The notes under the pieces are model-generated. The model did not search any database. It had not been told where the DNA came from and saw nothing but the letters and a program-made list of their open reading frames with translations. From contig CBDBDQ010000005.1 in the NCBI GenBank assembly GCA_965203905.1, positions 5,024,001 to 5,088,000 of the forward strand: 64,000 nt of DNA, given 5' to 3'. The number at the start of each line of letters is the position of its first letter. Position 1 is the stretch's first letter. The position numbers were made by a program, and so were the translations under genes. This stretch comes from Spirochaetia bacterium. GTDB lineage: Bacteria; Spirochaetota; Spirochaetia; SZUA-6; Bin103. Shown here piece after piece: positions 11,549-51,160 of the stretch.

Positions 11549-12806
11549 CAGGACTATCCCACGCTAACGCGAAAGCCGGCTGCAAGTCGTTGCTTCCGTT
11601 GCCCTCGGACCGACGCTCAACCCCCAACTCGCACCCCGGCGAGCGCGGATCACGTGACCCCGTCTGGCGGCGGTCCGTACTCCCGATGCCGGAAGCGGTT
11701 GTGGGCAGCACAATGAAGCCTGAGATTACCCGGCTCGGCGCTGCCGCCGAGCGCGAAGGGAACGATGTGGTCGAGCTGCAGCAGGAAGCGCGACCCGCAG
11801 CGCCGCCCAGTGTGCGGATCGACGTAACTGCAGCAGCCACCGTCGCGGCGCCACACCTCGCGCCGCACTGGTGCCGGAATGTAGCGGGATCGACGCGCCC
11901 GGTGGGGCGGCTGCGCGCTGCCTCCGGACGGGCCGGCTGCCGCCGCCTGCGGCCGCGAACGGCCGTCGAGTAGCGCCGCTCCTGTCCGCTTCGCCGCCCC
12001 TGTCCGCTTCGCTGGCGAAGGAGCGCTGCGACCACGATCCACCGCTACCAGCGCGGTCGGCATGCTCTGGTCTGCCGGCGGCGTCGGTCGTGGCGCCGGT
12101 GCGGTGGCGTGGGACCCACGATCGGCCACCGACTTCGGCGCCGAAGCAGCGGAGCCGGGCGCCGCCGTCGCTGGCTTGGCACGCACCGGGGATGCTGCCC
12201 GCGCAAGTCTCGCGCCCCGACGGCGGCGCGGACAGCGCCGAGGTGCCGGCGCCGCCATTCCCGCGCGCGGGTTCCTCTGCGGATAGCGCTGCTGGCGCCG
12301 GGGTACTGCCACCGGCGCTCGTGCCCTCCGGCGGCGTCGACTCTCCGGGTTGCTCTTGCGCGTCCCGCTTCGCCGGCGAAGCCGCCCCGCCTGCCGGCCC
12401 TTGCTGCGCCCTCGGCGCCGGTGCCTGGCCCGCGCTTGCCTCCCGGCGCCCACCTCGGCGCCCGCGCGGCGGCCGCCCCGGGTCGTAGCGCTGCAGGCCG
12501 TCCTGCACCAGCCGCTCGACGAGCTGCCCCAGCGTCAGGTGCGGGTCCACGTGCGACAGCAGTGCCCGTAGCTGCTCGATCCCGCACTGACAGGCAGATT
12601 CGATCACCACCTTCAGCTCCCAGCGGCCGTCCCCCAGCGCCCGCATGCGATCGGCCGGCCGCGCCAGCTCGGGAGCCACACCGGCCAACAACTGCTTCAC
12701 CTCGCGGGTGCTCTTGCCGCTCGCCTGCGCCACCAACTCCTGCCGCTGCGCCGCGTCCAACGCCGGCACCGCTCGCGCCGGCGCCGCTGCCGCGGTCCCC
12801 GAAGCC
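11549..12806 (-). mobile_element. HNH element copy 1 (5'-truncated, frameshifted ~12190)
   Basis: End repeat CAGGACTATCCCACGCT at 11549; trailer and HNH domain (RYIPAPVRREVWRRDGGCC...LDHIVPFALGG...NLRLHCAAHN) match the other copies; similarity stops at ~12806. Confidence 0.88.
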
Positions 12807-12869
12807 GCATCTCTCCAGCGAGCGACACTCCCACCGACACGTCTGCGCAGGAGAAAACCTCGACACTAG

Positions 12870-24424: not shown

Positions 24425-26560
24425 GAGGACTACCCCTCGCTACGCGACAAGCCGGCTGCAGTCGTTACGACCGTCGCCATCGGACCGACGCCCAACCGCC
24501 CAATTCGCACCCTGGCGAGCGCCGATCACTTGGGCCCGTCTGGCGGCGGTCCGTACTCCCGATGCCGGAAACGGTGGTGGGCAGCACAGCGAACGCGGAG
24601 ATTTCCCGGCTCTGCGCTGCCGCCGAGCGCAAAGGGAACGATGTGGTCGAGCTGCAGCAGAAAGCGGGAGCCGCAGCGCCGCCCGCTGTGCGGATCGACG
24701 TAACTGCAGCAGCCGCGGTCGCGGCGCCACACCTCACGCCGCACGGCTGCCGGAATGTACCGGGATCGACGCGCCCGGTGGGGCGCCTGCGCGCTGCCTC
24801 CGGACGTGCCGGCAGCCCGGCTCGTCCGCGAACGGCCATCGGTCTGCGCCGCTCCTGCCCGTTTCGCTGGCGAAGGAGCGTTGCGACCGCGATCCGCTGC
24901 TGCCGTCGCGGTCGGCATGCCCTGGTCTACCGGCGGCGTCGGCCGTGGCGTCGGTACGGTGGCGTGGGACCCGCGATCTGCCACCGACTTCGCTGCCGAA
25001 GCAGCGGTGCCGGGCTCAGTCGCCGATGGCTTGGTACTCACCGGGGTGGTGCTGGCGCAAGTCTCGCGCCCCGATGGCGGCGCGGACAACGCTGCCGGCG
25101 TCGAGGTGGTGGCGCCGCCAATCCCGCGTGCGGGTTCCTCTGCGGACAGCGCTGCCGGCGCCGGGGTGCTGCCACCGGCGCTCGTGCCCGCCGGCGTCGG
25201 CGGCACTCCGGGTTGCTGTTGCGCGTCTCGCTTCGCTGGCGAAGCCGCCCCGACTGCCGGCTCTTCCTGCGCCTTCGGCTCCGGCGCCTGGCCCGCGCTT
25301 GCCTCCCGGTGCCCACCTCTGCGCCCGCGCGGCGGCCGCCCCGGGTCGTAGCGCTGCAGGCCGTCCTGCACCAGCCGCTCCACCAGCTGCCCCAGCGTCA
25401 GGTGCGGGTCCACGTGCGACAGCAGTGCCCGTAGCTGCTCGATCCCGCGCTGACACGCGGCGTCGATCACCACCTTCAGCTCCCAGCGGCCCTCGCCCAG
25501 CGCCCGCAGGCGATCGGCCGGCCGCGCCAGCTCGGGAGCCACCCCGGCCAACAACTGCTTCACCTCGCGGGTGCTCTTGCCGCTCGCCTGCGCCACCAGC
25601 TCCTGCCGCTGCGCCGCGTCCAGCGCCGGCACCGGTCGCGCCGGCGCCGCTGCCGCGGTCCCCGAAGCCCCAGCCTCCGGTGCCGGCCCCGTGGCGCCCG
25701 GCAGCAGCTCCGGTGCCGCGGATGCCGAGCCGGGGTCCGCGGCGGCGGTCGCCGTGCGCTGCAGGAGATCGAAGGTGTTCTGCAACTGCGCCGCCGCGCT
25801 CAGGGAGAGCGAGCCGTCCTGCAGCCGCTCGCGTGACCCGGCGGTATCGGAGCACAGGCGCATGGCTTTGATACGGCGCCAGGCGGCGCCTTCGCTGTAG
25901 CCCAGTTCGCGTACCGCGTAGTCGAACAGGCTGGAGAACCCGAGGCGCAGGTGCAGGTGGCGGGCGTGGATCTCGCGCAGGTGGTCGAGGACGGCGAGCT
26001 GCAGCGCCTGCTCGTGCAGGACGAGGGACCTGGTGTGCGCCAGCAGCACTTGGTCGGGGAGCCCGGAGAGCGAGGAGGAGAAGCCGGTTGCGGTCGCGGT
26101 ATCCATGGCGTAAATATAAGCATGGCTGAGAAATGCCCGGTTTCTGCGAGTCCCGGGACGGGCACCTGGGAGGGTGCAGGCGGGCGCTGGCGGGGTGCTG
26201 ACGGGCCTGCGCGGCGTGGGGGGATGTTCGAAGGGTCGGAGGGGCCGGAACGTGCGGCAGGGGGCCGTTACGAGCAGCGCCAAACCCGTCAAGTGCTGAG
26301 CGCATTTTTTTGGCACTTTTCGCAGAATCCTGCGAGTCCTGCACCTCAGCGCCGACGTGGCAACAATGCAGCGGCGGAGACCGGCGTCGCGGGTCCCCGG
26401 CGCCCCGCTCATTTCTGGACATCTCGTACAGCGAACGAACCATGCACCCTGAGGGCGGCGACCTGGCAGGCGCCGGGGCCACCATCGTCGCTCGGCCACT
26501 ACCTTCCAGAAGATCCCTGCCACACAGGATGCAGACGGCGTTCAGCATGGGATGGTCTTG
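24425..26560 (-). mobile_element. HNH element copy 2 (complete)
   Basis: Ends GAGGACTACCCCTCGCT / AGCATGGGATGGTCTTG; leader and trailer shared with copies 3 and 4. Confidence 0.85.
24526..26106 (-). CDS. HNH endonuclease with DUF222-like helical N-domain (526 aa)
   Basis: LHLRLGFSSLFDYAVRELGYSEGAAWRRIKAMRL; C-terminal CC..RCG..LDHIVPFALGG..NLRVRCAAHH. Confidence 0.9.
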   Translation of the reverse strand: MDTATATGFSSSLSGLPDQVLLAHTRSLVLHEQALQLAVLDHLREIHARHLHLRLGFSSLFDYAVRELGYSEGAAWRRIKAMRLCSDTAGSRERLQDGSLSLSAAAQLQNTFDLLQRTATAAADPGSASAAPELLPGATGPAPEAGASGTAAAAPARPVPALDAAQRQELVAQASGKSTREVKQLLAGVAPELARPADRLRALGEGRWELKVVIDAACQRGIEQLRALLSHVDPHLTLGQLVERLVQDGLQRYDPGRPPRGRRGGHREASAGQAPEPKAQEEPAVGAASPAKRDAQQQPGVPPTPAGTSAGGSTPAPAALSAEEPARGIGGATTSTPAALSAPPSGRETCASTTPVSTKPSATEPGTAASAAKSVADRGSHATVPTPRPTPPVDQGMPTATAAADRGRNAPSPAKRAGAAQTDGRSRTSRAAGTSGGSAQAPHRARRSRYIPAAVRREVWRRDRGCCSYVDPHSGRRCGSRFLLQLDHIVPFALGGSAEPGNLRVRCAAHHRFRHREYGPPPDGPK

Positions 26561-33660: not shown

Positions 33661-35733
33661 CTACTCGGCGATGTAGAATTGAACGGGGGTTGCCTGAATC
33701 CAGAGCATGCTCTCGAAGGCGAACGGGAGCACTTCGGGGACGTTGCGCACGCGGTTGTTGACGATGATCGGCCGCACCACGTACGCCACGGTGCCGATCG
33801 CCGGCAGCAGCTCCGCCTGCAGCGCCCACCGCTCTGCGCCCAGCCGGTTGAACTCCTCGTCGTCGGTGGCGTTGGGCCACCCCCAGCCGGTGCGGATGAA
33901 TTTCTCCCACTCCTCCGGAGGTGCCTCGCCCGCGGGTGGTTCCTTGCCCTGGCGGCCTTGTTGCACCCAGAGCTCGTGTTGCCACCACCTATTCCAGTTC
34001 TCGGCGTAAGCCTTGAGGGTGCCGAAACCCGGATTGGAGGCCAGGCGGTTGGGGTTGTAGTCGCCGGCCACGCCCGCGTGCACGTCGAGCTGGTTGGCAG
34101 CCCTGAGCTCGGCGTAGAGCTCTTCGGAGACCATCTTGAGATCGACGCGCACGCCGACCTCCTGCCAGTAGTCCCGTACCAGCTCGCTGATGTTGAAACC
34201 CATCGGCCCGATCACCGACGAGGAACTGGTGCTCATCGACAGCGCAAACGAGCTGCCGTCCGGTCCCTCGCGGACGCCATCGCCGTCGGTATCACGCAAC
34301 CCGATCTCGTCCAGCATCGCCCGCGCCCGCGCCGGGTCGTAGTCGGCAAACGCCGTGGCCCACGCCGGATCGTAGAACCCCGCTCCCGCGGCCACCGTGA
34401 ACTGCTGCGGCGTTGCCAGCCCGTTGAACGCGAACTCGTTGATCTCCTCACGGTTGATGGCCAGCGACATGGCGTGGCGGAACCGCTTGTCGAGGAAGAC
34501 CTGCCGCTTCACCGGATCTTCATGATTGAGGTTGAACATGTAGATCATCCGCGCCGTCTTGAGATCCTGCCACTCGCGCAACGTGTAGTCGCCGATCGAC
34601 TCGTTCTCCTTGTAGAGCGCGAAGTCGGCCGGATCGGGGAGCCGGCCTCCCAGATCGACGCTGCCCTGCATCATGCTGAGAATGGCGACCTCGCTCTGCG
34701 CGAAGTAGCTCATGGTGAGGTTGTCGATATAGGGTAGCTGGTTGCCGGCGGTGTCCACGGCCCAGAAATAGGGGTTGCGCACCCGCGTAATGCCCTTCGA
34801 GTCGCGGTCGGACATGTACCACGGGCCCATCTCCGGCTGGATGTACTTGCGCCGTGGATCGAAGTTGAGCCGATCGTCGAAGTGCTTGATCCAGTCGTCG
34901 TAGCCTTCCTCCGCTGCCAGCTTCTCGGCGTCCGGGTTGAACTTGGGATGGAACTGCTGGAGAAAGTGGACCGGAGCGTAGAAGCGGCCCTGGCGCGAGC
35001 GCGTATACGCCATGAGGACGCTCAGCTTGGGCTGGGTGAGGGCGACGGGAAAGGAGATGCGCAGCGTGTAGTCGCCGAGCGCCTCGAACCTGGCGAGCTC
35101 GCCGCCCAGGGTGAACTGGCCGCGGTTGAAGTTCCTGATCTCCGGATCCTGCATCGTGTGCTCGTACACCCACATCGTGTCGTGCACGGTAAACGGCTCA
35201 CCGTCCGACCAGCGCGCGCCCTCCCGGTAGGAAATCGTGACGACGCGGTTGTCGTCCGAGACCTCGATGCCCCTTGCCAGGTAGGGGATGATGAGGTTGG
35301 AAGTGGGATCGGGCCGGAACATGAAGGCATGTTGCCCGCGGTACATGTCGCCCCAGTCCCCCGGTGACAGCCGGGCCACGCGCAGCGTGCCGCCGTATTG
35401 GCCCACCTCCGAGAACGGGGCGATCACCAGCGGATCGTCGGGCAGCCGGTCCTCCACGGGCGGCAGCTCCCCGGCTGCCACCATCTCCGCCAGCATCGGA
35501 GCTTCGTCGAACGCCGTGATACCGAGCTGTGATGCGGTGGGAGTCTCCAACCAGTTCTGCGGCCAGGTATAGCGACCGGCAACCAGCACCATGTCTGCGG
35601 CTGCCGTGGTGGCCGTGGCAGCCGTGCCTTCCGTAGCGCGCGGTGCGTCCGCGTCGCCCGCGGCAAACAGGAGCGGAGCGACAGCGCTCATGAGCGCGAC
35701 GACAATCGTGACCGAGAGACTTCTCGTTTTCAT
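33661..35733 (-). CDS. ABC solute-binding protein, family 5
   Basis: GELPPVEDRLP, RWSDGEPFT, RNPYFWAVD..GNQLPYID. Confidence 0.92.
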   Translation of the reverse strand: MKTRSLSVTIVVALMSAVAPLLFAAGDADAPRATEGTAATATTAAADMVLVAGRYTWPQNWLETPTASQLGITAFDEAPMLAEMVAAGELPPVEDRLPDDPLVIAPFSEVGQYGGTLRVARLSPGDWGDMYRGQHAFMFRPDPTSNLIIPYLARGIEVSDDNRVVTISYREGARWSDGEPFTVHDTMWVYEHTMQDPEIRNFNRGQFTLGGELARFEALGDYTLRISFPVALTQPKLSVLMAYTRSRQGRFYAPVHFLQQFHPKFNPDAEKLAAEEGYDDWIKHFDDRLNFDPRRKYIQPEMGPWYMSDRDSKGITRVRNPYFWAVDTAGNQLPYIDNLTMSYFAQSEVAILSMMQGSVDLGGRLPDPADFALYKENESIGDYTLREWQDLKTARMIYMFNLNHEDPVKRQVFLDKRFRHAMSLAINREEINEFAFNGLATPQQFTVAAGAGFYDPAWATAFADYDPARARAMLDEIGLRDTDGDGVREGPDGSSFALSMSTSSSSVIGPMGFNISELVRDYWQEVGVRVDLKMVSEELYAELRAANQLDVHAGVAGDYNPNRLASNPGFGTLKAYAENWNRWWQHELWVQQGRQGKEPPAGEAPPEEWEKFIRTGWGWPNATDDEEFNRLGAERWALQAELLPAIGTVAYVVRPIIVNNRVRNVPEVLPFAFESMLWIQATPVQFYIAE

Positions 35734-35886
35734 CCGAGACCTCCGTGCGAGCGAATTGGCCCGTCAGGCCTGGCGTGCCCGGTGCAAAGCTCCGATGTTC
35801 GGCTCAGGGCCGGATCACCGAGCGTACCGCACCGTCGACCGCACCGCAACTGCACCGCAACCGCTCCGGGTGCGACCGGTGCGACC

Positions 35887-37987
35887 TAGGGCCATCCCAT
35901 GCTGAACGACGTCTGAGTCCTGTGTGGGGCCGAGCCGCGGTGACGGCCCCGGCGGCAGCGCCTGCCGGATCGCCGCCTTCAGGGTGTGTGGTTTCGTTCG
36001 CTGCACGATGTGTCCAGGAATGAGCGGGTAGCCGCCCACCGCAACGCCGGTCTCCACCGATGCGTTGCTGCCACGTCGGCGCCGCGGGGCAGGATTCTGC
36101 AAAAAGTGTCAAAAAAAGCTCGCTGAGCACTTGACGGGTTTGGCGCCGCTCGTGACGGCCCCCAGCCGCACGTTCCGGCCCCTCCGACCCTTCGAGCATC
36201 CCGCCACGCCCTCCAGGCCCGTCAGCACCCCGCCAGCGCCGGCCTGCACCCTTTCCGGTGCCGGTCCGGGACTCGCCGAAACCGTCCATTTCTCAGCCAT
36301 GATTATATTTACGCCATGGCTACCGCGACCCCTACCGGCTTCTCCTCCTCGCTCTCCGGGCTCCCCGACCAGGTGCTGCTGGCGCACACCAGGTCCCTCG
36401 TCCTGCATGAGCAGGCGCTGCAGCTCGCCGTCCTCGACCACCTGCGCGAGATCCACGCCCGCCACCTGCACCTGCGCCTCGGGTTCTCCAGCCTTTTCGA
36501 CTACGCGGTACGCGAACTGGGCTACAGCGAAGGTGCCGCGTGGCGCCGTATCAAAGCCATGCGCCTGTGCTCCGATACCGCCGGGTCACGCGAGCGGCTG
36601 CAGGACGGCTCGCTCTCCCTGAGCGCGGCGGCGCAGTTGCAGAACACCTTCGATCTCCTGCAGCGCACGGCCACCACCGCCGCGGACTCCGGCTCCGCAC
36701 CCGCGGCACCGGAGCTGCTGCCGGGCGGCACGGGGCCGGCGCTGGAGGCGGGGGCTTCGGGGGCCGTGGCAGCGGCGTCGGCGCGAGCGGTGCCGGCGTT
36801 GGACGCGGCGCAGCGGCAGGAGCTGGTGGCGCAGGCGAGCGGCAAGAGCACCCGCGAGGTGAAGCAGTTGTTGGCCGGTGTGGCTCCCGAGCTGGCGCCG
36901 CCGGCCGATCGCATGCGGGCGCTGGGGGACGGCCGCTGGGAGCTGAAGGTGGTGATCGACGCCGCCTGTCAGTGCGGGATCGAGCAGCTACGGGGACTGC
37001 TGTCGCACGTGGACCCGCACCTGACGCTGGGGCAGCTGGTGGAGCGGCTGGTGCAGGACGGCCTGCAGCGCTACGACCCGGGGCGGCCGCCGCGCGGGCG
37101 CAGAGGTGGGCGCCGGGAGGCAAGCGCGGGCCAGGCGCTGGAGCCGAAGGCGCAGGAAGAGCCGGCGGGCGGGGCGACTTCGCCGGCGAAGCGGGGCGCG
37201 CAAGAGCAACCCGGAGCGCCGCCGCCGGAGGGCACGAGCGCCGGTGGCAGCACCCCGGCGCCGGCAGAGGAACTCGCGTGCGGGATTGGCGGCGCCGGCA
37301 CCTTGGCGGTGGCAGCGCTGCCCGCGCCGCCGGCGGGGCGCGAGACTTGCGCGGGCAGCACCCCGGTGCGTGCCATGCCAGCGGCGGCGGCGCCCGACAC
37401 CGCTACTTCGGCGGCGAAGTCGGTGGCAGACCGTGGATCCCACGGCACCGCACCGACGCCACGGCGGACGGCGCCGGCAGACCAGGGCAAGCCGACCGCG
37501 CAGGCAGCGGCGGATCGCGGCCGCAGCGCTCCTTCGCCAGCGAAGCGGGCAGGGGCGGCGCAGCTCGATGGCCGTTCGCGGCCGCCGCCGGCACCAGCCG
37601 GCCGCTCCGGAGGCAGCGCGCAGCCGCCCCACCGGGCGCGGCGATCGCGGTACATTCCGGCACCAGTGCGGCGCGCGGTGTGGCGCCGCGACCGCGGCTG
37701 CTGCAGTTACGTCGATCCGCACAGCGGGCGGCGCTGCGGCTCCCGCTTCCTGCTGGAGCTCGACCACATCGTTCCCTTCGCGCTCGGCGGCAGCGCTGAG
37801 CCGCGAAACTTGAGGTTACATTGCGCTGCCCACCATCGCTTCCGGCATCGGGAGTATGGACCGCCGCCGGACGGGACCACATGATCGGTGCTCGTCGGGG
37901 GTTCGAGTTGGGCGGTCGGGTGTCGGTCCGAGGGCAGCGGGAGCAACGACCTACATCCGGCTTGTCGCGCAGCGTGGGATAGTCCTG
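35887..37987 (+). mobile_element. HNH element copy 3 (complete)
   Basis: Ends TAGGGCCATCCCATGCT / AGCGTGGGATAGTCCTG. Confidence 0.88.
36316..37884 (+). CDS. HNH endonuclease with DUF222-like helical N-domain (522 aa)
   Basis: N- and C-domains near-identical to copies 2 and 4. Confidence 0.9.
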   Translation: MATATPTGFSSSLSGLPDQVLLAHTRSLVLHEQALQLAVLDHLREIHARHLHLRLGFSSLFDYAVRELGYSEGAAWRRIKAMRLCSDTAGSRERLQDGSLSLSAAAQLQNTFDLLQRTATTAADSGSAPAAPELLPGGTGPALEAGASGAVAAASARAVPALDAAQRQELVAQASGKSTREVKQLLAGVAPELAPPADRMRALGDGRWELKVVIDAACQCGIEQLRGLLSHVDPHLTLGQLVERLVQDGLQRYDPGRPPRGRRGGRREASAGQALEPKAQEEPAGGATSPAKRGAQEQPGAPPPEGTSAGGSTPAPAEELACGIGGAGTLAVAALPAPPAGRETCAGSTPVRAMPAAAAPDTATSAAKSVADRGSHGTAPTPRRTAPADQGKPTAQAAADRGRSAPSPAKRAGAAQLDGRSRPPPAPAGRSGGSAQPPHRARRSRYIPAPVRRAVWRRDRGCCSYVDPHSGRRCGSRFLLELDHIVPFALGGSAEPRNLRLHCAAHHRFRHREYGPPPDGTT

Positions 37988-38062
37988 GGTACGCAATGAC
38001 TGGCCGCGGAGGTAGGCAGCGGCACCATGGTGGCATGCGGGTCGCGAGCGTAATCGCCACAC

Positions 38063-38389
38063 TCACGCGCCTGTACCAGTCGCGTAGGGGGTTACGAGAT
38101 CGAGCCTTGAGCCCAAGCGATCCTCTTCACTCTCGAGGTCGTGCTGATTTTGCAGGCCCATCCAAAACGCGGCGCTGTTCCCGAAGAAGCGGGCGAACAG
38201 CAGCGCCGTCTCCGCGGTGATCGCGCGCTGCCCGTGTACGATGGCATGAATGCGACGAGGGTCGACGCCAATAGCCTTGGCCAACCGGTACTGGGTGATG
38301 TTCATCGGCGACAGAAATTCCTCAGCGAGGATCTCTCCGGGATGAATCGGTGGAAGTTTCGGTTTTGTATTTTCTTCTTCTCTCGCCAT
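38063..38389 (-). CDS. higA: HigA-family antitoxin (orphan)
   Basis: PIHPGEILAEEFL, RAITAETALLFARFFG, FWMGLQ. Confidence 0.9.
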   Translation of the reverse strand: MAREEENTKPKLPPIHPGEILAEEFLSPMNITQYRLAKAIGVDPRRIHAIVHGQRAITAETALLFARFFGNSAAFWMGLQNQHDLESEEDRLGSRLDLVTPYATGTGA

Positions 38390-38391
38390 AT

Positions 38392-39762
38392 CTATAGTCC
38401 AATTCGTGCCGCCAGATAGCGGGCGCCCTTGCCATCGCCGGCCTGCCGGGTCCACGCGGCCAGCAGGTTCCGGTGGTCGCGCAGCACCCGCTCGTGAGCC
38501 GGGGCCCCGGCCAGATTCACCGTTTCCAGGGGATCTTCGCGCAGGTCGCACAACAGCTCCTCCGACACCCCGTCATGGTGCAGGACGCAATACTTGTAGC
38601 GGTCGCTGCGCAGCATCCTGCCCGCCACCGTCTCGCTCACGACGTAGTCACGCCACCGCGCAGGCTCCTCGCCCAACGCCAGCCGCGCAAAGCTGCGTCC
38701 GGCAAGCCCCTCGGGAGCAGCGACCCCGGCGAGATCGCACAGGGTCGGCAGCAGGTCGATGCAGTTGTTGACCAGGTGCCTCTCGTCCACGCGGCCGGCG
38801 GGCACCCGGCCGGGCCAGCGCACGAGCAACGGCACGTGGACGGCTGCCTCGTAGAACGACCGCTTCATCGTCAGGCGATGCTCGCCGTCGTGGTCGCCAT
38901 GATCGCTGGTGAAGATCACCACCGTGTCCCGCTCCAGCCCCGACTCCCGCAGCGCATCCAGGACGATGCCGATCTGCCGGTCGACGTCGCCCATGAACGA
39001 GCGGTACGCGCCGCGGTAGAGCCGCCACTCCTCGTCGGTCCAGGCCTGAGAGCTGCGGCCGAAGCGGCGGTTCAGGCCCAGCTCCAGCGAAGACTCGTCA
39101 CCCAGCGTGCCGTCGCGGAACGCTGCGATCCAGCGCGGCTCGTCGCGGGTGGGGGCGAAGTTGGCGGGCAACGGCGGGCACCGGTCCAGCGTCAGCTCGC
39201 CGCTGGAGAACTTCCCGGTCTCGCGGTCTACCACCCGACAGATGTCATGAGGATTGATGAACGAGGCCCACAGGAAGAACGGAGCTCCTTGGCGTCTGCC
39301 CTTGCCGCGCTCCAGGAGAAAGTCTCCGGCACGCAGCGCCAGCTCCTCCCGCGAGTTGTCGATGAGACAGCGGAACCCGAACCGCTGCTCGGCTTCGCGG
39401 TTGAACATCGGCAGGCCCTCGACGTGCAGCTTGCCGCCGTAGACCGTTTCGTAGTCGGCCGCCTGCAGACACGACCCCATGGTGGGCGTGGACACCCAGT
39501 CAGCGATGGCGGGGAGCGCCTCCCCGGTGCTCTGGCGGTTGGTCTCCAGACCGCCGAACCGGTGCGGCATATCCCCGCTGAGCAGGCTGTAGCGAGCCGG
39601 CACGCACACCGGGTTGGCGACGTAGGTCAGACCGAAGCTGGTGCCCTCGCGCGCCAGGCGGTCAAGCGCCGGCGTCCGGACGTAGCGGTCACCGGCGTGG
39701 CCGGTCAGCCGGTGGTGCTGCTGGTCGGTGGTGATGAGCAGGATATTGGGGCGCTGAGCCAT
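38392..39762 (-). CDS. Sulfatase
   Basis: PNILLITTDQ, CVPAR (CxPxR), GKLH, FTSDHG. Confidence 0.92.
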   Translation of the reverse strand: MAQRPNILLITTDQQHHRLTGHAGDRYVRTPALDRLAREGTSFGLTYVANPVCVPARYSLLSGDMPHRFGGLETNRQSTGEALPAIADWVSTPTMGSCLQAADYETVYGGKLHVEGLPMFNREAEQRFGFRCLIDNSREELALRAGDFLLERGKGRRQGAPFFLWASFINPHDICRVVDRETGKFSSGELTLDRCPPLPANFAPTRDEPRWIAAFRDGTLGDESSLELGLNRRFGRSSQAWTDEEWRLYRGAYRSFMGDVDRQIGIVLDALRESGLERDTVVIFTSDHGDHDGEHRLTMKRSFYEAAVHVPLLVRWPGRVPAGRVDERHLVNNCIDLLPTLCDLAGVAAPEGLAGRSFARLALGEEPARWRDYVVSETVAGRMLRSDRYKYCVLHHDGVSEELLCDLREDPLETVNLAGAPAHERVLRDHRNLLAAWTRQAGDGKGARYLAARIGL

Positions 39763-48022: not shown

Positions 48023-48268
48023 CAGGACTGTCCCACGCTACGCGACCAGCCGGCTGCAAGTCGCTGCTCGCGCTGCCCCGGACGACACCCGACTACCCAA
48101 CTCGCACCCTGGCGAGCGTCGATCAGGTGACCTCGTCTGGCGACGATCCGTACTACCGGCTCATTCCTGGACACGTCGTACAGCGAACGAACCCACGCAC
48201 CTGAAGGCGACCTTGGAACATCCCTTGCCCATACGGGATGCAGACGTCGTTCAGCATGGTATGGCCTG
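48023..48268 (-). mobile_element. 246-bp MITE: internal-deletion derivative of the HNH element
   Basis: Trailer end (CAGGACTGTCCCACGCT...last HNH codons) joined at ~48154 to the first ~115 nt of the leader (...AGCATGGTATGGCCTG). Confidence 0.85.
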
Positions 48269-48309
48269 GCACGGTCCCCCAACGGGCCCTTGAACGACGC
48301 CACCGGCAG

Positions 48310-49035
48310 TCGCTGAGCCCGGTCCGTAAAAGCGCGGGCGACGGCGCGCGGATGGGCGCGCTGATCACGCCGGTGGGGCGGTGGCTGGCGCCGTATCAGC
48401 CGGCGCAGCGTTACCACCTGCTTGACCTGCAGCGGGTGGCGGCGGAGGATCTGCCCTACCGCAACCTGCTGCGCGCGGTGGTGCGGCTGGAGCAGAGCCG
48501 GTCGTGGGAGGACGTCAAGCGGGTGATGGGGGCGTTGCAGCGCTGGTTGCCGAAGCGTGGCGCGGAGGAGTTGCGGCGCGGGTTCGTGGATTGGATACGG
48601 CAGATTGCCGAACCGCTGGCGCCGGCGGGAGCGGTGGTGCCGGAGATACGGACGCTGGAGGAGGCGGGAATGTCGTTGGTGGAACGAGTCGCCGAGTGGC
48701 CCAAGCAGTGGCTCCAGGAAGGCCGCGAACAAGGCCTTGCGGAAGGCCGTGCACAGGGCGTTGCGGAAGGCCGTAAACAAGGCCGCGCCCAAGGCGTTGC
48801 GGAAGGCCGTGAACAAGGCCGTGAACAGGGCCTTACCCAGGGGTTCGACCAGCAGCGGACACTGCTGTGCCGGCTGGCGGCGGCGCGCTTCGATGCCGAC
48901 ACCGCCGCCCGCCTGGCCGACCTGCTGGCACCGGTCGCCGACCCGGAACGGCTGGCCGAGGTCGGTGACTGGCTGGTGCGCTGCGACACCGCCGCCAAGT
49001 TCCTCGCCCGCTTCGATCCCGCCTCGCGGGGCTGA
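48310..49035 (+). pseudogene. Rpn/YhgA-like protein C-terminal fragment with intact internal small ORF (48670-49035)
   Basis: YQPAQRYHLLD, LEQSRS, MSLVERVAEW..EGREQG repeats; nuclease domain missing; GGAGGAGG before ATG 48670. Confidence 0.75.
48718..48832 (+). repeat. 12/24-bp coding tandem repeats (EGRxQG)
   Basis: GAAGGCCG(C/T)G(A/C)ACA(A/G)GGC units, typical of Rpn C-termini. Confidence 0.8.
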
Positions 49036-49045
49036 CGTCCGCGGT

Positions 49046-51160
49046 CAGGACGCTCCCACGCTACGCGACAAGCCCGCTGCAAGTCGCTGCTCGCGCTGCC
49101 CCGGACCGACACCCGACCACTCAACTCGCACCCCGGCGAGCGTCGATCACGTGGCCCCGTCTGGCGACGATCCGTAGTCCCGATGCCGGAGACGGTGGTG
49201 AGCAGCGCAATGTAGCCTGAGATTACCCGGCTCGGCGCTGCCGCCAAGCGCGAAGGGAACGATGTGGTCGAGCTCCAGCAGGAAGCGGGAGCCGCAGCGC
49301 CGGCCGCTGTGCGGATCGACGTAACTGCAGCAGCCGCCGTCGCGGAGCCACACCTCGCGCCGCACGGGTGCCGGAATGTAGCGGGATCGGCGTGCCCGGT
49401 GGGGCGGCCGCGCGCTGCCTGCGGAGGGGCCGGCTGCTGCCGGCCGCGGCGGCGCTCGGCCATCGGCCTGCACCGCCGCCGCTACCCGCTGCGCCGCCCC
49501 TGCCCGCTTCGCTGGCGAAGGAGCGCTGCGACCGCGATCCGCCGCTGCCTGGGCGGTCGGCATGCCCTGGTCTGGCGGCCGTGACGCCGGTACCGTGCCG
49601 CGGGACCCACGATCTGCCACCGACTTCGCTGGCGAAGCAACGGCGCCGGGCGCCGCCACCGCTGGCCGGGCACTCACCGGGGTGCTGCTGCCCCAAGTCT
49701 CGCGCCCCGCCGGCGCCACGGACAGCGCTGCCAGCGCCGCGGTGCCGGCGCCGCCATTCCCGCGCGCGGGTTCCTCTGCGGACAGCGCTGCCGGCGCCGG
49801 GGTGCTGCCACCAGCGCTCGTGCCCTCCGGCGTCGGCGACACTCCGGGTTGCTGTTGCGCGCCCCGCTTCGCCGGCGAAGTCGCACCGCCGGCCGGCCCT
49901 TCCTGCGCCTTCGGCTCCGGCGCCGGGCCCGCGCTTGCCTCGCGGCGCCCACCCTTGCGCCCGCGTGGCGGTCGCCCGGGGTCGTAGCGCTGCAGACCGT
50001 CCTGCACCAGCCGCTCCACGAGCTGCCCCAGCGTCAGGTGCGGGTCCACGTGCGACAGCAGTGCCCGTAGCTGCTCGATCCCGAGCTGACAGGCAGAGTC
50101 GATCGCCACCTTCAGCTCCCAGCGGCCGTCGCCCAGTGCCCGCATGCGATCGGCCGGCCGCGCCACCTCGGGAGCCACCCCGGCCAACAACTGCTTCACC
50201 TCGCGGGTGCTCTTGCCGCTCGCCTGCGCCACCAGCTCCTGCCGCTGCGTCGCCCCCAGCGCCGGCACCGGGCTCAGTGGCGTCGCTGCCGCGGCCCCGG
50301 AAGCCCCAGCTTCCGGAGTCGTCTCTGCACCGCGCAGGAGCAGCTCCGGTGCCGCGGGTGCCGAGCCGGGGTCCGCGGCACCGGTCGCCGTGCGCTGCAG
50401 GAGATCGAAGGTGTTCTGCAACTGCGCCGCCGCGCTCAGGGTGAGCGAGCCGTCCTGCAGCCGCTCGCGGGTCCCGGCGGTCTCGGAGCACAGGCGCATC
50501 GCCTTTATGCGGCGCCAGGCGGCGCCTTCGCTATAGCCCAGTTCGCCCACCGCGTAGTCGAACAGGCTGGAGAACCCGAGGCGCAGGTGCAGGTGGCGCG
50601 CCTGGATCTCGCGCAGGTGGTCGAGGACGGCGAGTTGCAGCGCCTGCTCGTGCAGGACGAGGGACCTGGTATGCGCCAGCAGCACCTGGTCGGGGAGCCC
50701 GGAGAGCGAGGAGGAGAAGCCGGGAGCGCTTACGGTAGGCATGGCGTAAATATAATCATGGATGAGAAATGGCCGGTTACGGCAAGTCCCGGAACCGGCG
50801 CCGGGAAGGGTGCAGGCCGGCGCTGGCGGGTGCTGGCGGGCCTGGAGGGCGTGACGGGATGTTCGAAGGGTCGGAGGGGCCGGAATGTGCGGCAGCGGGC
50901 CGTCACGAGCAGCGCCAAACCCGTCAAGTGCCCAGCGCACTTTTTTTTGGCACTTTGCAGAATCCTGCACCCTGGCGGCGACGTGGCAGCAACGCAGCGG
51001 CGGAGATCGGCGTTGCGGGTGGGCGGCAACGGCTCATACTTGGACATGTCGTACAGCGAACGACCCACGCACCCTGAGGCGGCGATCTGGCAGGGGCCGG
51101 CCATCACCGCAGTTCGGCCACACACGGGATTCAGACGTCGTTCAGCATGGGATGGCCCTG
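49046..51160 (-). mobile_element. HNH element copy 4 (complete)
   Basis: Ends CAGGACGCTCCCACGCT / AGCATGGGATGGCCCTG. Confidence 0.88.
49147..50742 (-). CDS. HNH endonuclease with DUF222-like helical N-domain (531 aa)
   Basis: Same domains as copies 2 and 3. Confidence 0.9.
   Translation of the reverse strand: MPTVSAPGFSSSLSGLPDQVLLAHTRSLVLHEQALQLAVLDHLREIQARHLHLRLGFSSLFDYAVGELGYSEGAAWRRIKAMRLCSETAGTRERLQDGSLTLSAAAQLQNTFDLLQRTATGAADPGSAPAAPELLLRGAETTPEAGASGAAAATPLSPVPALGATQRQELVAQASGKSTREVKQLLAGVAPEVARPADRMRALGDGRWELKVAIDSACQLGIEQLRALLSHVDPHLTLGQLVERLVQDGLQRYDPGRPPRGRKGGRREASAGPAPEPKAQEGPAGGATSPAKRGAQQQPGVSPTPEGTSAGGSTPAPAALSAEEPARGNGGAGTAALAALSVAPAGRETWGSSTPVSARPAVAAPGAVASPAKSVADRGSRGTVPASRPPDQGMPTAQAAADRGRSAPSPAKRAGAAQRVAAAVQADGRAPPRPAAAGPSAGSARPPHRARRSRYIPAPVRREVWLRDGGCCSYVDPHSGRRCGSRFLLELDHIVPFALGGSAEPGNLRLHCAAHHRLRHRDYGSSPDGAT

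What the first reader, a model, noticed from the sequence alone, without database searches (positions are those of the whole stretch)
35887..37987. Multicopy transposase-less ~2.1-kb element carrying only an HNH endonuclease, bounded by 17-bp terminal inverted repeats
Seen: full copies at 24425-26560(-), 35887-37987(+) and 49046-51160(-), plus a truncated one at 11549-12806(-). Similarity between copies ends at the same points, ~430 nt upstream and ~100 nt downstream of the ORF. The two ends are inverted repeats of each other (CAGGGCCATCCCATGCT vs CAGGACTATCCCACGCT, 14/17). The only gene is a helical N-domain + Pro/Ala linker + HNH protein; no DDE, Y1 or serine recombinase is present. Known: DUF222-like/HNH genes occur as dispersed repeats with unclear mobility; CAGGG-starting ends with 8-10-bp duplications are, as I recall, typical of ISAs1-family IS. 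Inference: a distinct mobile class in which a nuclease rides between IS-like ends, moved in trans or by its own protein.
Basis: partly seen in the sequence, partly recalled or inferred. Interest (0 to 1): 0.88.

Follow-up and report, generated by a model that had tools for sequence, protein, structure and literature searches.

The report
Transposase-less ISAs1-derived cassette carrying HNH
The repeated 2.1-kb element is real, but it is most likely a passenger-carrying, transposase-less offshoot of an ordinary ISAs1-family insertion sequence that is moved by that sequence's transposase, not a new kind of mobile element.

Summary
The window has three full copies and one truncated copy of a ~2.1-kb element with sharp shared ends, imperfect terminal inverted repeats (CAGGGCCATCCCATGCT / CAGGACTATCCCACGCT) and one gene, a helical-N-domain + disordered linker + HNH protein. 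Genome-wide there are 59 loci (37 near-full; 32 of 37 with intact ORFs). 15 of 25 end pairs have 8-10-bp (mostly 9-bp) target duplications, against 0 of 25 in shifted controls.

The "distinct mobile class" reading is not supported. A 2,164-bp ISAs1-family insertion sequence (DruA-like + DDE_Tnp_1_assoc + DDE_Tnp_1) with near-identical termini (CAGGGCGATCCCATGCT) and 9-bp duplications is intact in two same-genus genomes. The window's genome keeps only a 3' remnant. The same termini also flank 140-bp MITEs and cassettes with other cargo (classic DUF222-HNH, Transposase_31/YhgA-like).

In another same-genus genome, this HNH gene family sits between the ends of an ISKra4-family IS. So the element is a mobile-insertion-cassette-type, non-autonomous ISAs1 derivative, moved in trans (inferred, not shown).

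What stays interesting is that nuclease genes are repeatedly carried by transposase-less derivatives of two DDE IS families, and the HNH domains are under purifying selection.

The parts
35887..37987 (+). Copy A: full non-autonomous ISAs1-type cassette (2,101 bp)
   Evidence: Sharp conservation boundaries; termini as below; target duplication decayed.
35887..35908 (+). Left terminus ('A-type' end, TAGGGCCATCCCATGCTGAACG; first base mutated from C)
   Evidence: Matches the IRL of the G002 ISAs1-family IS (CAGGGCGATCCCATGCTGAGG) over about the first 20 nt.
37966..37987 (-). Right terminus ('B-type' end, read inward CAGGACTATCCCACGCTGCGCG)
   Evidence: Inverted repeat of the left end (14/17). The same B-type end is found on MITEs and on other cargo cassettes in relatives. 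Contigs of run X3 diverge at 37987/37988.
36316..37884 (+). Cargo gene: 522-aa protein with a helical N-domain (aa ~10-125, 160-247), a disordered Pro/Ala-rich linker (249-444) and an HNH nuclease domain (445-513)
   Evidence: Pfam HNH. AlphaFold2 model. Foldseek gives only HNH hits and weak ParB/SopB-like hits. dN/dS is 0.19-0.25 in the domains and 0.9-1.2 in the linkers. D483, H484, N498 and the Cys residues are invariant or nearly so.
36117..36316 (+). Strongly conserved non-coding stretch upstream of the ATG. It includes the motif CCATGATTATATTTACGCCATG (36297-36318), which is shared with the distant HNH family of G001
   Evidence: 92-97% column conservation. The 22-nt motif is the only nucleotide similarity between the two families' upstream regions. 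No Rfam hit and no clear RNA-structure signal. Reading it as a -10 box plus leaderless start is my inference; the consensus promoter scan found nothing.
24425..26560 (-). Copy B: full cassette, intact 526-aa ORF
49046..51160 (-). Copy C: full cassette, intact 531-aa ORF
48023..48268 (-). 246-bp internally deleted mini-copy with both termini. Together with copy C it forms a 3,138-bp composite flanked by the 9-bp duplication TTGATGTGA
11549..12820 (-). Copy D: 5'-truncated copy (element positions ~854-2101) that keeps the right terminus

Best explanation
The element is a non-autonomous, passenger-carrying derivative of an ISAs1-family insertion sequence. This is the kind of unit called a mobile insertion cassette: two IS termini, no transposase, a cargo gene, and a target-site duplication.

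Its ~20-bp termini are the binding and cleavage sites of an ISAs1-family DDE transposase supplied in trans by a 2.16-kb IS with the same termini. That enzyme makes 9-bp staggered target cuts, which gives the 9-bp duplications.

In the window's genome the autonomous IS is gone (one 3' remnant remains). The 59 HNH loci are therefore relics of earlier amplification, not a currently active family.

The HNH protein is cargo, not the transposase. It is nevertheless a functional gene (intact in 32 of 37 near-full copies, purifying selection on its folded domains), and its own role is unknown.

Shown: anatomy, copy number, duplications, shared termini with a bona fide ISAs1-family IS in same-genus genomes, other cargo and MITEs on the same termini, selection on the cargo.
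Inferred: that the ISAs1 transposase actually mobilised these cassettes.
For: 1. Termini and duplications. 25 end pairs; 15 with 8-10-bp (mostly 9-bp) duplications at >=85% match, against 0 of 25 in five shifted controls.

2. Cognate IS. Model NF033564 (ISAs1 transposase) hits G002 (8), G005 (5) and G007 (1). Four G002 hits and one G005 hit (150-152 bits, cut-off 70) lie in 2,164/2,170-bp elements with termini CAGGGCGATCCCATGCTGAGG / CAAGGCGATCCCATGCTTCGG. Their 8-10-bp (mostly 9-bp) duplications are GGCGTGGGT, ATGTTGGGA, GCCGCCGAG, GCCGGCGGC and CAGGCGCA. The four G002 copies are 99.8-99.95% identical. The 603-aa protein has DruA, DDE_Tnp_1_assoc and DDE_Tnp_1 domains.

3. Remnant in the window's genome. 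It has no ISAs1 transposase over cut-off, but it has an 84.7%-identical remnant of the last 420 bp of that IS at C5:4213322-4213730.

4. Other cargo on the same termini (similarity limited to 19-36 terminal bp):
- a 1,290-bp cassette with a Transposase_31/YhgA-like gene in this genome;
- 140-bp MITEs with duplications in G009 and G015;
- a 1,400-bp cassette and 2,227-2,231-bp cassettes with a classic DUF222+HNH gene in G005 and G007. The latter are 96.9-97.8% identical within G005, which does have the IS.

5. Parallel case. In same-genus genome G001 (= G011), HNH genes of this family (44-63% identity) lie between termini GCGCAYTTCCAAWWTGTWGGTA with 8-10-bp duplications. A 1,519-bp ISKra4-family IS (NF033572, 214.6 bits, cut-off 205) has the same termini, at least 8 copies and 9-bp duplications.

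6. The HNH protein model has no RNase-H-like fold.

7. Literature. Passages seen: ISAs1 has 14-22-bp IRs starting CAGGG and a 10-bp DR (PMC11946415). A mic element is IR-bracketed, lacks a transposase, has a target duplication, and MIC231 is mobilised in trans by the IS231A transposase (PMC3913671).
Against: - Trans-mobilisation was not observed, and no intact cognate IS exists in the window's genome.
- The cognate IS was demonstrated in only 2 of the 6 genomes with 5 or more terminus hits. G009 (51 hits; 88% complete, 340 contigs) and G015 (5 hits; 95% complete) gave no ISAs1 hit. G007 gave only a contig-edge fragment.
- The cassette's B-type end differs from the IS's IRR at 4 of 17 positions, and no autonomous IS with a B-type end was found.
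- A mere passenger would not be expected to stay intact in 32 of 37 copies with dN/dS ~0.2-0.4 even for copy-specific changes. The cargo must matter, and I cannot say how.
- No empty site was found in relatives; flank genes are only 66-80% identical and synteny is not conserved.
Confidence: 0.8

Rival explanations
1. The HNH protein is the element's own transposase. That would make this an autonomous IS of a new, HNH-based class, with the helical N-domain binding the termini and the HNH domain cutting.
For: - The gene is the only ORF in the element and is intact in 32 of 37 near-full copies.
- Its domains are under purifying selection.
- Distant subfamilies of the protein come with different termini, which could look like co-evolution of protein and ends.
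- The N-domain shows weak ParB/SopB-like (DNA-binding) structural hits.
Against: - In both cases the termini equal those of a DDE IS: ISAs1-family in G002/G005, ISKra4-family in G001.
- The same termini bracket unrelated cargo and cargo-less MITEs.
- 9-bp duplications are what those DDE IS make themselves.
- With 32 intact genes there are still no recent copies in this genome; median pairwise identity is 89% and the maximum is 96.8%.
- From general knowledge, not tested here: no HNH enzyme is known to catalyse strand transfer.
Confidence: 0.04
2. The Transposase_31/YhgA-like (Rpn-type PD-(D/E)XK) protein, carried by sister cassettes with the same termini, is the real trans-acting transposase for the whole terminus family.
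For: - A 1,290-bp element with the same termini carries this gene in the window's genome, with two further copies.
- The family's Pfam description is 'putative transposase, YhgA-like'.
Against: - A bona fide DDE transposase with these termini exists.
- The YhgA-like cassettes here are few and old: 88% identity between copies, decayed duplication.
- The 1,400-bp cassette in G005 carries a different protein with no Pfam hit.
- From general knowledge, not tested here: no transposition has been shown for this family.
Confidence: 0.03
3. The copies are assembly artefacts or plain segmental duplications, not a mobile element.
For: A 99%-identical duplicate of the left flank plus the first ~620 nt of copy A lies on a separate 107-kb contig (C3:99793-101597). 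That one duplicate could be an assembly or duplication effect.
Against: - Copies are 83-97% identical, have different flanks, the same sharp ends and their own target duplications.
- Contigs of four public runs from three studies show single-copy-level flanks and a high-depth interior. One of these runs may be the sample the genome came from.
Confidence: 0.01

Closest known systems
Mobile insertion cassettes (MIC231 / IS231 of Bacillus cereus; qnr-carrying mic elements)
   Same: Bracketed by the inverted repeats of an IS, with no transposase, a passenger gene instead, a target-site duplication, and mobilisation in trans by the cognate IS transposase. Definition and the MIC231 example come from passages read in PMC3913671.
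   Different: - The vehicle is ISAs1-family (and ISKra4-family in a same-genus genome), not IS231/IS4.
- The cargo is a nuclease, not a metabolic or resistance gene.
- Copy number is very high (59 loci).
- Trans-mobilisation is inferred here, not demonstrated.
ISAs1 family of insertion sequences
   Same: Termini start CAGGG and are ~17-22 bp long, with 8-10-bp target duplications (family features from a passage in PMC11946415; ISArsp11 example in PMC6305408). The cassette's termini nearly equal those of a 2,164-bp IS whose protein passes the NCBIfam ISAs1 model and carries DDE_Tnp_1_assoc + DDE_Tnp_1.
   Different: - The window element has no transposase.
- The duplication is mostly 9 bp, against the 10 bp quoted in the two papers.
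- The cognate IS is longer than the ~1.3-kb example (ISArsp11, 1,306 bp) because its transposase has an extra N-terminal DruA-like domain.
ISC / IscB and TnpB elements (non-autonomous IS200/IS605-type transposons carrying a nuclease)
   Same: A nuclease gene sits inside transposon ends without the transposase and is moved in trans (abstract of PMC4810608 seen in a search listing). The HNH domain is weakly similar to the IscB HNH (18 bits against a cut-off of 175).
   Different: - No RuvC domain.
- No Rfam RNA and no RNA-structure signal upstream.
- The ends are DDE-type TIRs with duplications, not IS200/IS605 hairpin ends.
- Any helper role of the nuclease is speculation here.
REP13E12 / DUF222-HNH dispersed repeats of mycobacteria and other actinobacteria
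   Same: Multicopy genes with a helical N-domain + HNH architecture and unclear mobility (listed as a repetitive element in a passage of PMC10589994). A classic DUF222+HNH gene rides on the same termini in G005.
   Different: The window protein does not hit DUF222: 0 of 33 family members, and hhalign aligns only the HNH part. Only 2 of 10 distant N-domain relatives hit DUF222, below cut-off. Whether REP13E12 repeats have IS ends was not examined.

Membership tests
ISAs1 family (as a non-autonomous derivative) | Terminal inverted repeats of 14-22 bp starting CAGGG | tested here: met
   CAGGGCCATCCCATGCT / CAGGACTATCCCACGCT on 25 pairs. The family feature is from a passage in PMC11946415. The B-type end starts CAGGA.
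ISAs1 family (as a non-autonomous derivative) | Target-site duplication of 8-10 bp | tested here: met
   15 of 25 pairs at >=85% match, mostly 9 bp, against 0 of 25 in shifted controls.
ISAs1 family (as a non-autonomous derivative) | Encodes an ISAs1-type DDE transposase (DDE_Tnp_1_assoc + DDE_Tnp_1) | tested here: not met
   The element's only gene is HNH, so it is not an autonomous family member.
ISAs1 family (as a non-autonomous derivative) | Termini shared with an autonomous IS of the family | tested here: met
   2,164-bp IS in G002 (4 copies) and 2,170-bp IS in G005: NF033564 at 150-152 bits (cut-off 70); PF13808 and PF01609 present; IRL CAGGGCGATCCCATGCT.
Mobile insertion cassette (MIC) | Bracketed by IRs, no transposase inside, passenger gene, target duplication | tested here: met
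   definition from a passage in PMC3913671.
Mobile insertion cassette (MIC) | Mobilised in trans by the cognate IS transposase | not testable with these tools
   Inferred from shared termini, equal duplication length, MITEs and several cargo types. Needs a transposition assay.
DUF222-HNH (REP13E12-type) proteins | DUF222 (PF02720) N-terminal domain | tested here: not met
   No hit at E<=1 in 33 of 33 members. hhalign against a DUF222-HNH protein aligns only the HNH part. 2 of 10 distant relatives hit below cut-off, so a remote relation is possible.
DUF222-HNH (REP13E12-type) proteins | C-terminal HNH nuclease domain | tested here: met
   PF01844 in 30 of 33 members; the DH...N...H and Cys residues are conserved.
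IscB / OMEGA RNA-guided nucleases | RuvC domain split by HNH, plus an adjacent structured guide RNA | tested here: not met
   NF040563 scores 18 bits against a cut-off of 175, HNH part only. No Rfam family. Alifold z = -2.5 / -1.4 for the conserved upstream 220 nt.
Free-standing homing endonuclease gene | Insertion at one conserved target sequence or gene | tested here: not met
   Flanks and duplicated target 9-mers differ from copy to copy.

The most novel reading that the evidence does not exclude
The nuclease is not a random passenger. Transposase-less derivatives of two unrelated DDE IS families (ISAs1 and ISKra4) have repeatedly recruited nucleases: this HNH family, a classic DUF222-HNH, and a YhgA-like PD-(D/E)XK. 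The proposal is that the nuclease promotes the cassette's own persistence or spread, for example by cutting empty or excised sites so that repair copies the cassette back. That would be a protein-guided counterpart of what TnpB/IscB do for IS200/IS605 elements. It would also give the long-enigmatic helical-domain-HNH dispersed repeats (REP13E12-like) both a vehicle and a job.
Probability: 0.15. Interest if true: 0.75.

Novelty: new member of a known kind. Interest (0 to 1): 0.4.

Why it matters
It turns an apparent new HNH-based mobile class into an explained case: a mobile-insertion-cassette-type offshoot of an ISAs1-family IS, with its likely helper identified in sister genomes.

Two points are of wider use:
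- Dispersed helical-domain-HNH gene repeats, whose mobility has been unclear, can spread as cargo between borrowed IS ends. They do so on at least two IS families within one genus.
- The cargo is kept functional in dozens of copies even where the helper IS has died out. This raises a testable question: do such nucleases serve the cassette (retention or homing) or the host?

For annotation: these loci should not be called transposases. Their 17-22-bp ends mark ISAs1-type non-autonomous elements.

Tried and rejected
- **Guide or structured RNA in the 430-nt upstream region.** No Rfam match at E<=1. RNAalifold on 37 copies of 36100-36320 gave z = -2.5 (+) and -1.4 (-) against column shuffles. The other sub-regions kept only 2-8 rows after gap filtering and are uninformative. 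Rejected for lack of signal, not disproved.
- **Sigma-70 promoter scan of 35800-38100.** 0 sites. My '-10 box plus leaderless start' reading of 36297-36318 is therefore only an inference from its conservation in two families.
- **ISKra4 as the helper for the window element.** The window's genome has five 2,921-bp ISKra4 copies and one of 1.56 kb. Their termini (GGGTGCGGCTCTTTT..., GGGGTGCATTCC...) differ from the cassette's. ISKra4 IS of G002 and G005 also have GGGTGC-type ends. Rejected for family 1. ISKra4 is the likely vehicle for the G001 family and is linked to subfamily 2.
- **The ~2.6-kb insertions in two HNH copies as a possible resident transposase.** They are an unrelated IS66-like IS (6 copies, ~100% identical) that landed there.
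- **Empty-site search in 10 same-genus genomes with window 34700-39200.** Flank genes are only 66-80% identical and not colinear, so no empty or occupied orthologous site could be called.
- **A clean 'single old burst, then in-situ decay' model.** The pairwise identity distribution is narrow, but most variants are shared between copies and singletons are few. Pre-insertion diversity or gene conversion cannot be excluded, and I do not claim a burst date.
- **MmeI-like gene remnant.** It is present upstream of the HNH gene in G001 elements but was not found in the window element.
- **Public runs.** No contig bridged either junction by the tool's 31-letter rule, and none joined the flanks across the element. 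This says nothing about empty sites.
- **Literature.** Searches found no paper describing an HNH-only gene between ISAs1 or ISKra4 ends or an HNH transposase with TIRs and duplications. Only open-access full texts and bioRxiv were searched. ISfinder/TnPedia and supplements could not be consulted.
Full report
**Observation**

The window holds three full copies and one truncated copy of a ~2.1-kb repeat. Aligned with 400-nt flanks, similarity begins at TAGGGCCATCCCATGCTG (35887) and ends at ...GCGTGGGATAGTCCTG (37987). A column-conservation profile over 37 near-full genomic copies drops from about 0.9 to about 0.4 at exactly these points. The only sizeable conserved ORF is 36316-37884 (522 aa). 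Its only Pfam hits are HNH models; PF01844 passes its cut-off (E=1.6e-4). NCBIfam gives only an 18-bit match of the HNH part to IscB.

**Genome-wide picture**

The window is G000:C5:5024001-5088000 in a 7.99-Mb, 66% GC, 5-contig genome.
- blastn finds 59 loci at >=80% identity, of which 37 are near-full.
- 32 of the 37 keep one open frame from the N-domain motif through the HNH motif.
- A terminus motif search gives 25 distinct inward-facing end pairs. 15 have 8-10-bp (mostly 9-bp) flanking direct repeats at >=85% match, and 10 of those are perfect. Five shifted controls each gave 0 of 25.
- The element proper is CAGG...CCTG.
- Pairwise identity of the 37 copies is 83-97% (median 89%). Only one pair exceeds 95%.

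**The cargo protein**

Nei-Gojobori dN/dS over 496 pairs:

| Region (aa) | dN/dS, all pairs | dN/dS, copy-specific single-base changes |
|---|---|---|
| 1-120 (N-domain part 1) | 0.19 | 0.33 |
| 121-165 (variable) | 1.22 | 0.73 |
| 166-262 (N-domain part 2) | 0.21 | 0.20 |
| 263-450 (linker) | 0.91 | 0.89 |
| 451-522 (HNH) | 0.25 | 0.37 |

The singleton counts are small.

An AlphaFold2 model built on 33 sequences is confident for a helical N-domain (10-125, 160-247) and for the HNH domain (445-513). It is disordered across 249-444. Foldseek against the PDB finds nothing at E<=0.001. Its best weak hits are HNH nucleases (McrA, Cap5, colicin/pyocin DNases, Gme HNH, IscB/Cas9 HNH), plus weak ParB/SopB-like hits for the helical part. 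Nothing in it is RNase-H-like.

The N-domain is not DUF222 by Pfam: 0 of 33 members hit it. hhalign against a classic DUF222-HNH protein aligns only the HNH part. Two of ten distant N-domain relatives hit DUF222 below cut-off. The N-domain family is large: 6,698 50%-identity clusters at E<=1e-3 and 1,999 at E<=1e-10.

**Who owns the ends?**

*Other cargo on the same termini.* Scanning the genome for the terminus motif revealed other elements with the same ends. A 1,290-bp unit (C5:5515052-5516341) carries a Transposase_31/YhgA-like gene (E=9e-16), with further copies elsewhere.

*Relatives.* The pattern CAGGRCYATCCCAYGCTG (<=1 mismatch) occurs in 14 of 41 genomes searched. The reversed-pattern control gave one hit in all. 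The size classes are:
- 140-bp MITEs in G009 and G015, with duplications (for example GTCTCGCTC);
- a 1,400-bp cassette in G005 (duplication GCGAGGAGG; 355-aa ORF with no Pfam hit);
- 2,227-2,231-bp cassettes in G005 and G007 carrying a classic DUF222 (E=3e-21) + HNH gene.

*The ISAs1-family IS.* The NCBIfam ISAs1 transposase model finds nothing over cut-off in the window's genome (PF13808 also negative). It hits G002 (8), G005 (5) and G007 (1). Four G002 hits and one G005 hit lie inside 2,164/2,170-bp elements:
- Termini are CAGGGCGATCCCATGCTGAGG and CAAGGCGATCCCATGCTTCGG.
- Target duplications are 8-10 bp, mostly 9 bp.
- The four G002 copies are 99.8-99.95% identical.
- The 603-aa protein has DruA-like, DDE_Tnp_1_assoc and DDE_Tnp_1 domains.

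The window's genome retains an 84.7%-identical fragment of the last 420 bp of this IS. Across all these elements, similarity is confined to the terminal 19-36 bp. That is what is expected if the shared part is the transposase's recognition site.

In G005, which has the IS, the DUF222-HNH cassettes are 96.9-97.8% identical, and one has a perfect AGGGGTAGC duplication. They are therefore younger than the copies in the window's genome.

**A second, independent vehicle**

Relatives of the HNH protein at 44-63% identity are multicopy in other 'MAG: Spirochaetia bacterium' records. About 32 of the 42 loci come from one record, G001. G001 is the same record as same-genus genome G011.

Those copies end in GCGCAYTTCCAAWWTGTWGGTA-type inverted repeats with 8-10-bp duplications. 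Of the 7 end pairs caught by a strict pattern among the 42 loci, 4 had at most one mismatch. The same termini bracket a 1,519-bp IS in at least 8 copies. Its 467-aa protein passes the ISKra4 model (214.6 bits, cut-off 205). Three fetched copies (one with an internal deletion) are 98-99% identical, with 9-bp duplications.

In the window's genome, a diverged HNH subfamily (72-76% nucleotide identity, about 11 copies) lies in a different repeat. That repeat ends in the IRR of a 1.56-kb ISKra4-type IS and abuts ISKra4 transposase fragments.

So the same gene family travels on ISAs1 ends in one species and on ISKra4 ends in another. This argues that the HNH protein does not itself specify the ends.

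**Mechanism**

The best-supported reading is a mobile-insertion-cassette-type, non-autonomous ISAs1 derivative. Its termini are bound and cut by an ISAs1-family DDE transposase supplied in trans. Integration uses 9-bp staggered target cuts. The helper was later lost from this genome, leaving decaying relics. An unrelated IS66-like IS with identical copies has since inserted into two of them.

The definitions come from read passages. ISAs1 has IRs of 14-22 bp starting CAGGG and a 10-bp DR (PMC11946415), with ISArsp11 as an example (PMC6305408). Mic elements and the trans-mobilisation of MIC231 by the IS231A transposase are described in PMC3913671.

Mobilisation itself is inferred.

**What remains unexplained**

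- Why the cargo is kept intact and under purifying selection in 32 copies.
- Why the 200 nt before the ATG is as conserved as the coding domains without any RNA-structure signal.
- Why nucleases of several kinds recur as cargo on these cassettes.

The boldest reading still allowed is that the nuclease helps the cassette persist or home. I put this at about 15%.

**Novelty and score**

My four literature searches found no description of an HNH-only gene between ISAs1 or ISKra4 ends. The category itself (IR-bounded passenger cassette moved in trans) is known. I file the element as a new member of a known kind, with interest 0.4. It is a tidy explanation of an apparently exotic element, with a modestly surprising pattern of recurring nuclease cargo.

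Noticed in passing
window 48023-51160: A 246-bp internally deleted mini-copy (48023-48268), 777 bp of other DNA and full copy C together are flanked by a perfect 9-bp duplication (TTGATGTGA). Neither part has its own duplication. This looks like a composite that transposed using the outer ends of two cassettes.
   Followed up: partly
G000:C5:3697240-3699172, 4835787-4837802, 5227441-5229446 and about 8 more (outside the window): A second HNH subfamily (72-76% nucleotide identity, same architecture) lies in a ~1.9-2.0-kb repeat with different ends. Its right end equals the IRR of a 1.56-kb ISKra4-type IS (C5:2122480-2124039), and ISKra4 transposase fragments (model positions ~331-382) abut it.
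   Followed up: partly
G000:C5:5005554-5008474 and 4 more copies (just upstream of the window's genomic start): A 2,921-bp ISKra4-family IS with two ORFs (320 and 537 aa), 99-100% identical copies, termini GGGTGCGGCTCTTTT... and 9-bp duplications. It is recently active, and one copy sits inside a subfamily-2 HNH repeat.
   Followed up: partly
G000:C5:4668268-4670873, 7577416-7580005 and 4 more: A 2.59-kb IS66-like IS (542-aa transposase-like ORF plus a 337-aa upstream ORF; family name by eye, not scanned) with 6 near-identical copies. Two of them inserted within ~40 bp of the HNH start codon in two different cassettes.
   Followed up: partly
L072 (G002:C1:4695600-4699500), protein aa 27-183: The ISAs1-family transposase that owns the termini has an N-terminal DruA-like domain (PF14236, 84.8 bits; the Druantia protein family) fused in front of DDE_Tnp_1_assoc and DDE_Tnp_1. 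The 337-aa ORF of the IS66-like IS shows a similar sequence motif by eye.
   Followed up: no
L007 1697-2881 and the upstream parts of the G001 HNH elements (L005-L036, ~2650-2900): In G001 the HNH gene is preceded by the 3' part of an MmeI-type restriction-modification gene (MmeI_TRD, 34.9 bits, cut-off 27). The IR-bounded copies carry variously deleted remnants of it, which suggests the cargo was captured together with a piece of its former neighbour.
   Followed up: partly
G000:C3:99793-101597 versus window 34700-36504: A 107-kb separate contig carries a 99%-identical duplicate of copy A's left flank plus the first ~620 nt of the element. This is either a recent segmental duplication or an assembly alternative.
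   Followed up: no
window 36117-36316: The non-coding 200 nt before the ATG is 92-97% conserved across 37 copies, as much as the coding domains. It has no Rfam hit, no alifold signal and no consensus promoter.
   Followed up: partly
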